Position numbers: made by a program | Shown here: piece by piece, positions 8,218-11,200 of the stretch | Layout: every line of letters begins with the position of its first letter | How positions within the stretch are numbered: the first letter of the stretch is position 1 | NCBI RefSeq assembly: GCF_055900595.2 | Contig: NZ_CM148325.1 | DNA: 64,000 bases | Direction: 5' to 3' (one strand)

Positions 8218-11200
8218 TGACCACTACATTCTGACGGTAAACTCAGGAATTTGTCGGTAAGAGCCTGATTTACTGAGACAGAATCTTTGCCCCTGAGTCT
8301 AAGGATGATCGTATAACGTGATTTTCGGTCTACAAGTGTGGCTATATGAGAGTTTTTTGTACCTAAGACTAAATCGCCCTCCCAATGCCCCAGAGAGCGT
8401 CTGTTATCGATATTTCGGGAACGTTCGTGAATTGGTGTTCCGTTCACTATGTTAATCGTACCTCTTTCGCCTTTGCGGGTATGACGCCTGCCATGGCGAA
8501 GGCTATGCGACCGTCGCAGATGCTGTATATTCAGGTGGTGTAGCGCTTCACGGCTACGAAAGTACAGCGTTTTATAAATTGTCTCAGGTGATATTCGCAG
8601 CGTTTTTTGACGTGGTTTTGTTCGCCTTAACCATCCTGATATTTGCTCTGGAGACCATTTCATCTCCAGCTTTTCCAGAACAAGCTTTCGCAATGGTAAA
8701 TTTTGATCCAGTAAGCACGGTTTTGGCCTTTTCGCCATTCTGTTGGCTCGGTTATTAGCATCAACAGCTTTGTAATAGCGTCTGCCCCGATTACGCTGAA
8801 CTTCACGTGAGATCGTCGAAGGACTGCGATTCAGCGCAGTAGCTATCGCACGAATGCTCATTTTGGCTGACAAACCAGCTCGTATCTCCTCGCGCTCAGA
8901 CAGTGTCAGGTGAGCTACAGCCCGCTTACGCTCATGGGGTTTTATGCCGCCAGTATCCCTTAACATAGTGAAGATCGTTCCGGGTTTTGAACCCAGGATA
9001 TTCGCTATTTCACTGAAGCCTGTTCCGTTCTTCCATAGTTCAAAAACAGAGGCTTTTTCCTCTGCTGTAAATGTTCGTCTCATTCAAAAAACCTCTGCAA
9101 CCCCATGTTTTCACATAACTGTTGCGTTGACCAATTGAATCTACAGTTGCTTTTTTTAATATATCTCGCTCAAGGCGAGCTTCATTTAACGCCTTACGCA
9201 GTTGCAGAATTTTAGATTCCAGTTCAGCCACCGTGCGGGAACCAAGAGTACCGAGCCCTTTTCTGGCGGCGGTAACCCATTGTCCTAAAGTGCCTTCAGG
9301 AAGAGATAATCGGGAAGCGCCTTCACTGATCGAAAGTTGATTTTCAAGAACCGTTCTGACAGCTTCGGCTTTGAACTCTTTAGAGTAACGTTGGGTTTTT
9401 CTGCTCATTATTAGCTCCTTCTGATGCCATTCTATTTCAGGAAGGAGTGTCCGTTAAACTCAGGCTACCTCATCCGTCAGAGCTGCATGATGGCGGCGTG
9501 AGAACCTTAGGCATCCCGACAGTGGTGGATAGGCCTATCCAGCAGGCTATAGCTATAGCGCAACATTTAAGCGCCATCGTGGACAAAAGCTTCTCAGACT
9601 CTAGGCACGGTTTCCGGCTGGGACGCAACGTATGGCAGGCAGTGCAATAGGCACAGCATTATATACGGGGCAGCAAACGGTGGGTGGTGGATATAAATCT
9701 GGAGAAGTTCTTCGACCGTGTGGATCACAGACTCCTGATGACGCGTCTGGCCAGTACGATAAAGGACAGGCGGGTGCTGAGGCTGATACGCCGCTACTTG
9801 AAAGAGGAAATAGTCCGGGACGGGCAAAGAGAGAAATGGCAGGAAGGCATGCCGCAGGGCGGCCATTGCTGGATGATATCAGGACGTCGTAGAGAACAAA
9901 CTGAAGCAGAAAGTGAATGAGAAGAAGAGCGCGGTGGCGCGCCCGTGGGAGCAGAAGTTCCTCGGGTACAGTATGACATGGCACAAACAGTTGAAGCTGA
10001 AAATAGCCCTGACGAGTGTGAACAGGCTGAAGGAGAAAGTGCGCAGTCTGACCACGGGAAACCGGAGCAAATCAGTGAAAGCGACAATCAATGCCCTGAC
10101 GCCAGTGCTGCGTGAACCTGTTTAAGATTCTGTGTAAATGCCTTTTCTCAGAAGTGACCGTCCTGGCGGTCACCGAACTCGATAATAAAGCGGCTGAACC
10201 TGTACATAGATTTGTGTAATCGCCTGATTTTGATATGTTCAATCCAGCATCATATGAAGGTTAATTTATGGATGAAAAACAGTTACAGGCTCTGGCTAAC
10301 GAACTGGCCAAAAACCTCAAAACCTCTGAAGACCTCAGTCAGTTTGATCGGCTGCTGAAAAAGCTCAGCGTTGAAGCCGCTCTCAATGCTGAGATGACAC
10401 ACCATCTTGGGTATGAGAAAAATCAGCCCAGACTAGGAGCTAACTCCCGCAACGGTTATTCCACAAAGACCGTTATCACAGGCGACGGTCCACTGGAACT
10501 GCGTACTCCGCGCGATCGTGACGGTACCTTCGAACCACAACTGGTAAAGAAAAATCAGACCCGTATTACCGGGATGGATAACCAGATCCTCTCGTTGTAT
10601 GCCAAAGGGATGACCACTCGTGAGATAGCTGCTGCGTTCAAAGAACTGTATGACGCAGATGTTTCACCGGCGCTGACAGCCGAAGCTGGCAGGCTAACTG
10701 GCCGAATCTTGCCACGTTCTTCGCTTATCCAACGGACATCCGCAAAGTGATCTATACGACGAATGCCATCGAGTCGCTAAACAGCGTGATCCGCCATGCG
10801 ATCAAAAAGCGTAAAGTGTTCCCGACAGACGACTCGGTGAAAAAAGTGGTGTGGCTGGCAATCCAGTCTGCGTCCCAGAAATGGACGATTCCGTTGAAGG
10901 ACTGGCGAATGGCAACGAGCCGCTTGGAACTGTAAATATCACATAGTTTTTGCGCCAAAATACCGAAGACAGGTGTTCTACAGAGAGAAGCGTAGAGCAA
11001 TAGGCTGTATTTTGAGGAAGCTGTGTGAGTGGAAAAGTGTACAGATTCTGGAAGCTGAATACTGTGCAAATCCCGCCCCAAATGAGCGCATACGGAAGTG
11101 TTCTGCGCTGGTTTTGCCGTACTCCTTCATGGGCCGGTTATTCATATCCGTCAGTAAATCCCAAAAACGTACATTCAACGTAAGCATCCGGTGAACTCGC

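What the first reader, a model, noticed from the sequence alone, without database searches (positions are those of the whole stretch)
9129..9160. Two IS30 insertions at the same relative position in two different IS3-family orfA genes
At 9145/9146 (minus strand) and 24357/24358 (plus strand) the IS30 left terminus TGTAGATTCAATTGG abuts ...ATATTAAAAAAAGC plus 3 nt of two distinct IS3-family orfA genes (IS600-like MSRKTQRYS... and MPMSGKRYPEEF...). Both are therefore 3 nt downstream of the A7G programmed-frameshift motif, which suggests IS30 target preference for this conserved segment, or homologous exchange between the IS copies.
Basis: seen in the sequence. Interest (0 to 1): 0.45.

Follow-up and report, generated by a model that had tools for sequence, protein, structure and literature searches.

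The report
IS30 hot spot in IS3 elements
Two copies of the mobile element IS30 sit at exactly the same codon of two unrelated IS3-family elements because that conserved stretch is one of IS30's best natural targets, and the two copies later flipped the 15 kb of DNA between them.

Summary
At 9146/9145 (minus strand) and 24357/24358 (plus strand) the IS30 left end abuts ATATTAAAAAAAGC plus 3 nt of two different IS3-family orfA genes. One is IS600. The other is the K-12 "ISX"/ISEhe3-like element. Their left parts are only 59% identical.

The cause is IS30's known hot-spot targeting. A target matrix trained only on IS30 flanks with no detected IS3 homology recovers the experimental lambda hot spot. 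It scores the IS600, IS911 and ISX frameshift windows at or above every position in the 64-kb window, and it picks the observed 2-bp duplication. In 269 IS30-type ends from public genomes, metagenomes and viral contigs, 76% lie in IS3-family elements. Nearly all are at this codon, in both orientations, in at least 15 different host elements.

A rearrangement is overlaid. The IS600 left half at site 1 and the IS600 right half next to the site 2 IS30 are the two halves of one IS600::IS30 insertion (duplication AC). An inversion of 9146-24357 between the inverted IS30 copies separated them. The un-inverted allele exists in three E. coli genomes.

Both junctions are common in E. coli, and K-12 carries equivalents. 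This is ordinary biology; the general IS30-into-IS3 rule may be under-described.

The parts
6980..8228 (+). Complete IS3-family element, 88% identical to ISEc52. Its right end truncates the site 1 IS30 copy at IS30 position 917. There is no target duplication at its two ends.
   Evidence: ends TGTAGTGGCACAC... and ...GTTGACCACTACA; the same element sits next to LysR/PACE genes in other E. coli, and the match stops at 8228.
8229..9145 (-). IS30 copy 2, positions 917 down to 1 (left inverted repeat at 9145). The 3' third is missing.
   Evidence: 99.9% identical to positions 1-917 of the complete copy.
9146..9472 (-). IS600 left part, positions 1-327. It includes the truncated orfA (9408 down to 9146) and the A7G frameshift motif. 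Its last 2 nt (AC; GT on the plus strand at 9146-9147) are one copy of the IS30 target duplication.
   Evidence: 99.4% identical to intact IS600. NCBIfam IS3 profile positions 1-81; identical junction in K-12 KpLE2 (IS600 fragment | IS30D).
9473..10100 (-). Degenerate group II intron reverse-transcriptase fragment, the original left flank of this IS600 copy. The end at 10100 is approximate.
   Evidence: the flank CATCATGCAGCTCTGACGGA is identical to the left flank of intact IS600 in strain Combat11I9; annotated 'group II intron maturase-specific domain' in the collinear region of fS54a.
9146..24357 (.). 15.2-kb segment inverted between the two oppositely oriented IS30 copies.
   Evidence: fS54a is collinear with the reverse of window 8229-15911, then directly with window 24358-46120 through a single IS30; the reconstructed un-inverted allele is found contiguous in 3 genomes.
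24044..24357 (+). Left part (314 bp) of an ISX/ISEhe3-like IS3-family element, with orfA from 24107 and the A7G motif. It ends in GCCGT, whereas intact relatives have GCCGC|GGCG.
   Evidence: 96.8% identical to K-12. K-12 annotates it 'ISX', insX. PMC3032704 lists insX as ISEhe3; intact relative..
24358..25578 (+). Complete IS30 (1221 bp) with its 383-aa transposase gene at 24420-25571.
   Evidence: annotated as IS30 family transposase. NF033563, 277 bits against a cutoff of 80.
25579..26516 (+). IS600 right part, positions 326-1264. The orfB here is a pseudogene with stops and frameshifts. The first 2 nt (AC) are the second copy of the target duplication.
   Evidence: 99.8% identical to intact IS600, and the right outer flank GGATGCCGTC is identical to that of intact IS600 in Combat11I9; annotation notes frameshift and internal stop.
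7301..7326 (+). Unoccupied IS30 hot-spot sequence TTAAAAAAGGCT[AC]CGCGCTCTTGAT in the frameshift window of the ISEc52-like element.
   Evidence: 15.7 bits, joint top score in the window.
16242..16267 (+). Unoccupied IS30 hot-spot sequence, identical 26-mer, in the frameshift window of the ISEc31-like element.
   Evidence: 15.7 bits. ISEc31 annotation in the collinear FY10 region.

Best explanation
The frameshift window of IS3-family elements, DNA ...TTAAAAAA(A/G)GCn[NN]nGCG.A.TT... encoding L-K-K-A-x-A-x-F, is a natural hot spot for IS30. It is a nearly palindromic site of about 26 bp.

From published work: IS30 transposes by copy-out/paste-in. The joined ends of the circular intermediate are cut, and they attack the two target strands 2 bp apart. 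This produces a 2-bp duplication.

Shown here: IS30 entered this site independently in IS600 (duplication AC) and in the ISX/ISEhe3-like element (native dinucleotide GC). It therefore lies at the same codon in both, 5 nt past the slippery heptamer. This cuts orfA off from orfB and kills the host element.

Also shown here: the two IS30 copies were in opposite orientation, and the 15.2 kb between them (9146-24357) was inverted. As a result the IS600 left half is now at site 1. The IS600 right half is now joined to the IS30 copy that carries the ISX left half at site 2. This explains why the site 2 IS30 has no matching duplication (GT on the left, AC on the right).

Inferred: the inversion arose either by homologous recombination between the IS30 copies or by an IS30-mediated inversion. 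Later an ISEc52-like element removed the last third of the site 1 copy.
For: (1) Junctions and homologous position.

(2) Clean insertions at the same dinucleotide, with a 2-bp duplication:
- IS911A::IS30A in K-12, GGCT[AC].
- IS600::IS30, GCA[AC], and ISX::IS30, GCC[GC], each in both orientations, in metagenome and viral contigs.

(3) Survey. There are 269 IS30-type ends and 110 distinct flanks. 204 ends (76%) lie in IS3-family context, in at least 15 distinct orfA-side hosts. IS30 relatives only about 68% identical, in Shewanella, Marinomonas and Marinifaba, also sit there.

(4) The 49 flanks without detected IS3 homology show the same half-site: T at -13, A-run, G at -5, R at -2. The matrix built from them gives IS600 17.7, IS911 15.7 and ISX 14.8 bits, against a window maximum of 15.7. 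In each case the observed duplication is the best-scoring position.

(5) The same matrix picks lambda 33290/33291 (12.3 bits) within the LHS fragment. PMC9333248 gives the left part of LHS as lambda 33244-33290.

(6) Inversion.
- IS600 positions 1-327 and 326-1264 carry the outer flanks of one IS600 copy.
- The reconstructed contiguous allele is present at 100% coverage and 99.4-99.6% identity in fS54a, FDAARGOS_536 and WEC.
- fS54a collinearity shows the flip.
- FY10 has the same arrangement as the window, but with a complete second IS30.

(7) PMC9333248 states that IS30 has hot-spot and inverted-repeat targeting, makes a 2-bp duplication, and generates inversions and deletions.
Against: - No transposition assay was done. 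Preference is inferred from where elements are found, so retention bias contributes an unknown share.
- Copy counts are not independent events. Composite IS3::IS30 units can be inherited or mobilised, and the sample is dominated by gut E. coli.
- Some 'non-IS3' training flanks could be undetected IS3 relatives.
- The ISX junction reads GCCGT, while intact relatives read GCCGC. This 1-nt difference is not explained.
- The published 24-bp consensus (Olasz 1998) could not be read for a direct comparison.
- Homologous recombination and transposase-mediated inversion cannot be distinguished.
Confidence: 0.85

Rival explanations
1. There was one insertion that was later copied. The two junctions descend from a single IS30 insertion whose host segment was duplicated.
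For: The 14 nt next to each junction are identical, and the self-alignment of the window runs 26 nt past the IS30 end.
Against: The host left parts are 59% identical overall. The 3 nt adjacent to IS30 differ. In IS600 they are the host's native bases. In ISX two of the three match intact relatives, which read CGC where the window reads CGT. The outer flanks and genomic contexts also differ.
Confidence: 0.01
2. Retention, not targeting. IS30 inserts widely, but only copies that land inside other insertion sequences are harmless enough to persist. The enrichment in IS3 elements would then be survivorship.
For: Insertions in dead or selfish DNA are expected to be neutral. 76% of ends lie in IS3 context. 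The junctions are old and widespread: 2185 and 1276 of 5426 E. coli genomes.
Against: Survivorship cannot give single-nucleotide precision in at least 15 different hosts and in both orientations. Flanks without IS3 homology share the same half-site. A matrix built from them predicts the exact dinucleotide and the experimental lambda hot spot. Retention probably amplifies the signal but does not create it.
Confidence: 0.08
3. Exchange between the IS3 elements themselves. Recombination within the shared ATATTAAAAAAAGC block moved one IS30 junction from IS600 onto the other element.
For: The flanks are demonstrably shuffled: ISX-left|IS30|IS600-right in the window, ISX-left|IS30|IS911-right in Combat11I9, and many chimeric pairs.
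Against: 14 nt is too short for efficient homologous recombination (own knowledge). A crossover inside the 14-mer would carry IS600's AAC to the junction, but CGT is seen. The shuffling is fully explained by crossovers inside the 1.2-kb IS30 copies. Clean ISX::IS30 insertions with a GC duplication exist (L172, L111).
Confidence: 0.03
4. Spread of composite units. IS3::IS30 composites keep the IS3 ends and are mobilised in trans, or move with islands and plasmids. This would inflate the apparent number of events.
For: Identical IS911|IS30 junctions occur in many species and contigs. The IS600-left|IS30 junction in K-12 has a different outer flank (inside IS911B) from the one in the window.
Against: This explains copy number only. 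It does not explain why many unrelated IS3 hosts, and elements in both orientations, share the position.
Confidence: 0.03

Closest known systems
IS30 natural hot-spot (HS) targeting, e.g. the lambda LHS site (Olasz et al. 1998; summarised in PMC9333248)
   Same: Nearly palindromic target, 2-bp duplication and insertion in either orientation. The matrix derived here recovers the LHS junction at lambda 33290/33291.
   Different: The target here is the conserved frameshift window of another IS family. It scores higher than LHS (14.8-17.7 vs 12.3 bits). I found no open-access paper naming it as a hot spot.
E. coli K-12 MG1655 annotated nests: IS911A::IS30A, ISX|IS30B, IS911B|IS30D|IS600
   Same: The codon position is the same. 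The IS600(1-327)|IS30-left-end junction is identical to window site 1. The ISX left part abuts IS30 at the same nucleotide.
   Different: In K-12 the ISX junction is with the right end of IS30 (opposite orientation) and reads GCTGC. The IS600 fragment lies inside IS911B rather than in a group II intron remnant. No 15-kb inversion is involved.
Insertion sequences that target other repeated DNA (IS1397 and ISKpn1 in BIME/REP sequences, IS621 in REP; PMC1525189)
   Same: A transposase recognises a conserved, partly palindromic repeat, so insertions pile up at one position of a repeated element.
   Different: The repeat here is the coding frameshift window of a rival transposable element, and the insertion inactivates it.
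IS-mediated chromosomal inversions between inverted IS copies
   Same: Two inverted 1.2-kb copies flank the flipped segment, the flanks are exchanged, and the IS lacks matching duplications.
   Different: Nothing unusual, except that both endpoints were set by the same hot-spot sequence in two IS3 elements.

Membership tests
IS30 (IS30 family) | About 1221-bp element with 26-bp imperfect terminal inverted repeats starting TGTAGATTCAAT | tested here: met
   24358-25578 is 1221 bp. The ends are TGTAGATTCAATTGGTCAACGCAACA and TGTAGATTCAATCTGTCAATGCAACA (read as its reverse complement).
IS30 (IS30 family) | Single DDE transposase of about 383 aa | tested here: met
   The 383-aa ORF at 24420-25571 scores 277 bits on NF033563 transpos_IS30, cutoff 80. 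RefSeq calls it an IS30 family transposase.
IS30 (IS30 family) | 2-bp target duplication | tested here: met
   AC ends the IS600 left half and starts the IS600 right half. The contiguous allele with the AC duplication is present in 3 genomes. The site 2 copy as it now stands has GT/AC, explained by flank exchange.
IS30 hot-spot (HS) target class | Nearly palindromic target of about 24 bp shared with experimentally defined hot spots | tested here: met
   Half-site from flanks without IS3 homology. IS3 windows score 14.8-17.7 bits with the observed duplication as best position. The same matrix finds the lambda LHS junction. A direct comparison with the printed 1998 consensus was not possible.
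IS30 hot-spot (HS) target class | Experimentally elevated insertion frequency | not testable with these tools
   This needs a transposition assay. Only natural occurrence data are available.
IS3 family, IS600 | Sequence identity to IS600, with orfA, the A7G frameshift motif and orfB | tested here: met
   99.4% (positions 1-327) and 99.8% (positions 324-1300 of the query) identical to an intact copy. Annotated IS600 in Nissle and K-12. Matches the NCBIfam IS3 profile.
IS3 family, ISX / ISEhe3-like | Homology to K-12 insX and to an intact IS3-family relative with a programmed frameshift | tested here: met
   96.8% identical to K-12 ISX. 91.7% identical to an intact element annotated with a programmed frameshift. 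Matches the NCBIfam IS3 profile, 63 bits on the 83-aa fragment. The name ISEhe3 rests on a table in PMC3032704, not on an ISfinder comparison.

The most novel reading that the evidence does not exclude
The -1 frameshift window of IS3-family elements is the principal natural landing site of the whole IS30 clade. That clade includes relatives only about 68% identical, found in marine gammaproteobacteria. If so, IS30-type elements systematically nest in and inactivate IS3-family elements. This would be an IS-on-IS 'safe haven' or antagonism that has not been explicitly described. It would also seed inversions in IS-rich islands.
Probability: 0.4. Interest if true: 0.55.

Novelty: new member of a known kind. 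Interest (0 to 1): 0.38.

Why it matters
For this window, the finding explains a tangle of IS fragments as two hot-spot insertions plus one inversion. It also identifies which fragments belong together.

More generally, it shows that a short coding motif conserved for ribosomal frameshifting in one transposon family is also an excellent DNA target for another family. That bears on three things:
- How insertion sequences limit each other.
- Why IS30 is so often annotated next to 'partial IS3 transposase' pseudogenes.
- Where rearrangement breakpoints in pathogenicity islands are likely to fall.

It also gives a cheap predictor, a 26-bp matrix, for future IS30 insertion sites. Two such sites (7313 and 16254) are still empty in this window.

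Tried and rejected
1. I tried to obtain the published IS30 hot-spot consensus. Olasz 1998 and the 1997 J Bacteriol paper are not held. Searches for 'GOHS', '24 bp palindromic' and similar terms gave nothing usable. I therefore derived the matrix empirically.

2. I assumed the window was the same as strain FY10, which matches site 2 at 100%. This was rejected. FY10 has a complete second IS30, group II introns inside ISEc31-like copies and an extra intron-intron inversion. It lacks the IS10.

3. I considered that site 2 arose from the Combat11I9-type arrangement (ISX-left|IS30|IS911-right 360 bp|intact IS600) in one of two ways: a simple IS30-adjacent deletion of 724 bp, or a replicative inversion towards the right.
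- The deletion alone does not account for the IS600 left half 15 kb away.
- The rightward inversion predicts the wrong end polarity (IS30 right end next to IS600-left).
- The arrangement that fits has the resident IS30 inverted relative to IS600, followed by insertion into IS600 and an inversion.
- The order of events relative to the Combat11I9 lineage remains unresolved.

4. I considered IS30 inverted-repeat targeting as the reason for the repeated junctions. It gives only head-to-tail joints (PMC9333248), so it cannot explain both orientations at one flank.

5. One protein-family call failed on a wrong reading frame. It was corrected.

Full report
**1. What is in the sequence**

Site 1, read on the minus strand, is ...CGCCTTGAGCGAGATATATTAAAAAAAGCAAC|TGTAGATTCAATTGGTCAACGC. 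The bar lies between window positions 9146 and 9145.

Site 2, on the plus strand, is ...GACGAACGGGACATATTAAAAAAAGCCGT|TGTAGATTCAATTGGTCAACGC. The bar lies between 24357 and 24358.

The site 2 IS30 is complete: 24358-25578, 1221 bp. The site 1 copy contains only IS30 positions 1-917 (9145 down to 8229) and differs at one base. The 383-aa ORF of the complete copy scores 277 bits on the NCBIfam IS30 transposase model, whose cutoff is 80.

**2. The two host elements are different**

- The site 1 host is IS600. Window 9472-9146 is 99.4% identical to positions 1-327 of an intact IS600.
- The site 2 host (24044-24357) is 96.8% identical to the fragment that K-12 annotates as "ISX" (insX). A published table lists insX as ISEhe3 (PMC3032704).
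- The two left parts are 59% identical at the DNA level.
- Both OrfA fragments align to the NCBIfam IS3 transposase profile from position 1, and both stop at profile position 81. The "same relative position" is therefore real in homology terms.

**3. Native targets**

Intact copies read as follows:
- IS600: ATATTAAAAAAAGCA[AC]AGCGTATTTTGC.
- ISX-like: ATATTAAAAAAAGCC[GC]GGCGTACTTCGC.
- IS911: ATATTAAAAAAGGCT[AC]CGCGCTCTTGAT. In K-12, IS911A is split by IS30A with the bracketed AC duplicated on both sides.

In all three, IS30 sits after the second base of the codon that follows Ala in the peptide I-L-K-K-A-x-A. That is 5 nt past the slippery heptamer.

K-12 also has two further cases. ISX abuts the right end of the truncated IS30B at the same nucleotide. 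IS911B abuts IS30D, whose left end abuts a 327-bp IS600 fragment. The latter junction is the same as window site 1. So three of the four K-12 IS30 copies lie in this motif. The fourth is in ydbA, with duplication CT.

**4. Survey**

I scanned a collection with one genome per species, a metagenome collection and a viral-contig collection for the shared IS30 terminal repeat.
- This gave 269 ends with at least 30 nt of flank, and 110 distinct 24-nt flanks.
- 57 distinct flanks have IS3-family protein homology within 900 nt. Together with four flanks added by hand because they were short or obviously homologous, they account for 204 of the 269 ends.
- Nearly all of these are at the same codon, on either the orfA side or the orfB side.
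- For each major host, left and right IS30 ends are both common. For example, ISX-left has 17 left ends and 15 right ends.
- At least 15 different orfA-side sequences are involved.
- Some of the IS30-type elements are only about 68% identical to E. coli IS30. Those in Shewanella, Marinomonas and Marinifaba still sit in IS3 frameshift windows.
- Among 33 non-redundant complete copies there are clean insertions with a 2-bp duplication in IS600, IS911 and ISX in both orientations. There are also many chimeric flank pairs.

**5. Is it the sequence or the element?**

The 49 distinct flanks without detectable IS3 homology show the same half-site: T at -13, an A-run from -12 to -7, G at -5, C weakly at -4, and R at -2.

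A log-odds matrix built from these flanks alone and applied symmetrically gives:
- IS600: 17.7 bits.
- IS911: 15.7 bits.
- ISX: 14.8 bits.

In each case the best-scoring position is exactly the observed duplication. Across the 63,972 positions of the window the maximum is 15.7. The two top sites are the still-empty frameshift windows of the ISEc52-like element (7313) and the ISEc31-like element (16254).

As an external check, the same matrix picks lambda 33290/33291 (12.3 bits) as the best site in lambda 33200-33520. The Olasz laboratory describes the natural hot spot LHS as lambda 33244-33498, with its left part ending at 33290 (PMC9333248).

I conclude that the IS3 frameshift window is a strong member of the known IS30 hot-spot class. 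The conserved coding sequence TTAAAAAARGCn..nGCG.A.TT happens to be a near-palindrome of the kind IS30 recognises.

**6. The overlaid rearrangement**

The site 2 IS30 has GT on its left and AC on its right, so it lacks a matching duplication.

Its right flank (25579-26516) is IS600 positions 326-1264 at 99.8% identity. Together with site 1 (positions 1-327), the two IS600 pieces overlap by exactly the dinucleotide AC.

Their outer flanks, CATCATGCAGCTCTGACGGA and GGATGCCGTC, are the two flanks of a single intact IS600 in strain Combat11I9.

I built the predicted un-inverted allele: intron remnant, IS600-left, IS30, IS600-right, downstream DNA. It was found contiguous in one piece, at 100% coverage and 99.4-99.6% identity, in three E. 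coli genomes. In one of them, fS54a, the locus is collinear with the reverse of window 8229-15911 and then directly with window 24358-46120.

So 9146-24357 is inverted in the window between the two inverted IS30 copies.

Other arrangements of the same pieces:
- Strain FY10 has the same arrangement as the window. Its second IS30 is complete and is flanked on the right by an IS911-like right part that also begins at the hot spot.
- In Combat11I9-type genomes (about 70 records) the ISX-left|IS30 junction is followed by that IS911-like right part and then by an intact IS600.

Homologous recombination and IS30-mediated inversion both fit. PMC9333248 documents that IS30 intermediates generate inversions and deletions. 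I cannot tell the two apart.

The site 1 copy later lost positions 918-1221, where the right end of an ISEc52-like element (6980-8228) now abuts it without a duplication. That element is in its usual place next to LysR and PACE-transporter genes.

**7. How common**

Among 5,426 complete E. coli genomes:
- The IS30 left end is present in 3,538 genomes.
- The IS600-left|IS30 junction is present in 2,185.
- The ISX-left|IS30 junction is present in 1,276.

These are old, widely inherited structures, not events private to this genome.

**8. Known or new**

Published work already describes IS30 hot-spot targeting, its near-palindromic targets, the 2-bp duplication and IS30-driven rearrangements (Olasz 1998, cited from memory and through PMC9333248). 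The K-12 nests are in the reference annotation. PMC9333248 notes that IS911 is interrupted by IS30A.

In eight full-text searches I found no paper saying that the IS3-family frameshift window is an IS30 hot spot. The key 1998 paper could not be read.

I therefore file the feature as a new member of a known kind. The instance is ordinary; the generalisation is possibly under-described.

**9. Limits**

- Preference is inferred from natural occurrence, and retention of harmless insertions must contribute.
- Copy counts are not independent events.
- The "non-IS3" training flanks were defined by homology to only four reference elements.
- The GT at 24356-24357, where intact relatives have GC, is unexplained. 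Carry-over of a donor 2-bp spacer during integration is a possibility suggested by the mechanism described in PMC9333248. It was not tested.

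Noticed in passing
window 20279-21607: A 1329-bp IS10-type element (ends CTGATGAATCCCCTAATGATTTTGG..., 406-aa-plus transposase ORF) flanked by a 9-bp direct repeat TGCTCGGCA. It is absent from the collinear regions of FY10 and Combat11I9, so it is a recent simple insertion next to the autotransporter gene.
   Followed up: partly
window 24356-24357: The ISX-left junction ends in GT, whereas intact ISX-like elements have GC at this dinucleotide. In the survey both GCCGC (18 ends) and GCCGT (13 ends) occur, each with left and right IS30 ends. K-12 has GCTGC, and one contig has GCCAC. The variation is confined to the bases touching the IS30 tip. It might record donor-spacer carry-over at integration.
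   Followed up: partly
window 7313-7314 and 16254-16255: Two unoccupied, top-scoring predicted IS30 targets (TTAAAAAAGGCT[AC]CGCGCTCTTGAT) lie in the frameshift windows of the ISEc52-like and ISEc31-like elements.
   Followed up: yes
window 16674-16682 (inside the ISEc31-like element, about 15950-17200): In strain FY10 this exact point carries a complete group II intron (ltrA). A second intron copy sits at the same position of an IS911-like fragment. FY10 shows an extra inversion between the two introns. The window's element has no intron.
   Followed up: partly
window 9473-10100: A degenerate group II intron reverse-transcriptase remnant with stops and frameshifts. IS600 was inserted into it with a GGA duplication.
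   Followed up: partly
window 8228/8229; locus L001 (Nissle 1917) 3990-5239: ISEc52-type elements have hit IS30 twice at different IS30 positions, in the same relative orientation: position 917 in the window, and about 1155 as a simple insertion in the Nissle sat island.
   Followed up: no
window 10758-10925 vs 23288-23454: A 168-bp inverted repeat at 90% identity (transposase-fragment remnants) lies inside the inverted segment.
   Followed up: no
loci L205, L171, L094, L216 (metagenome and viral contigs): Complete IS30 copies with mismatched IS3 flanks: IS600-left on both sides, IS600-left with IS911-left, IS911-left with IS600-right, and ISX-left with IS911-right. Flank exchange between hot-spot-embedded IS30 copies is frequent.
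   Followed up: partly
window 42350: The frameshift-region homologue of an IS3-type element (CTCCAAAAGGCC[GC]GACATACTTCGC) scores only 11.0 bits. Not all IS3-family members are equally good IS30 targets.
   Followed up: no
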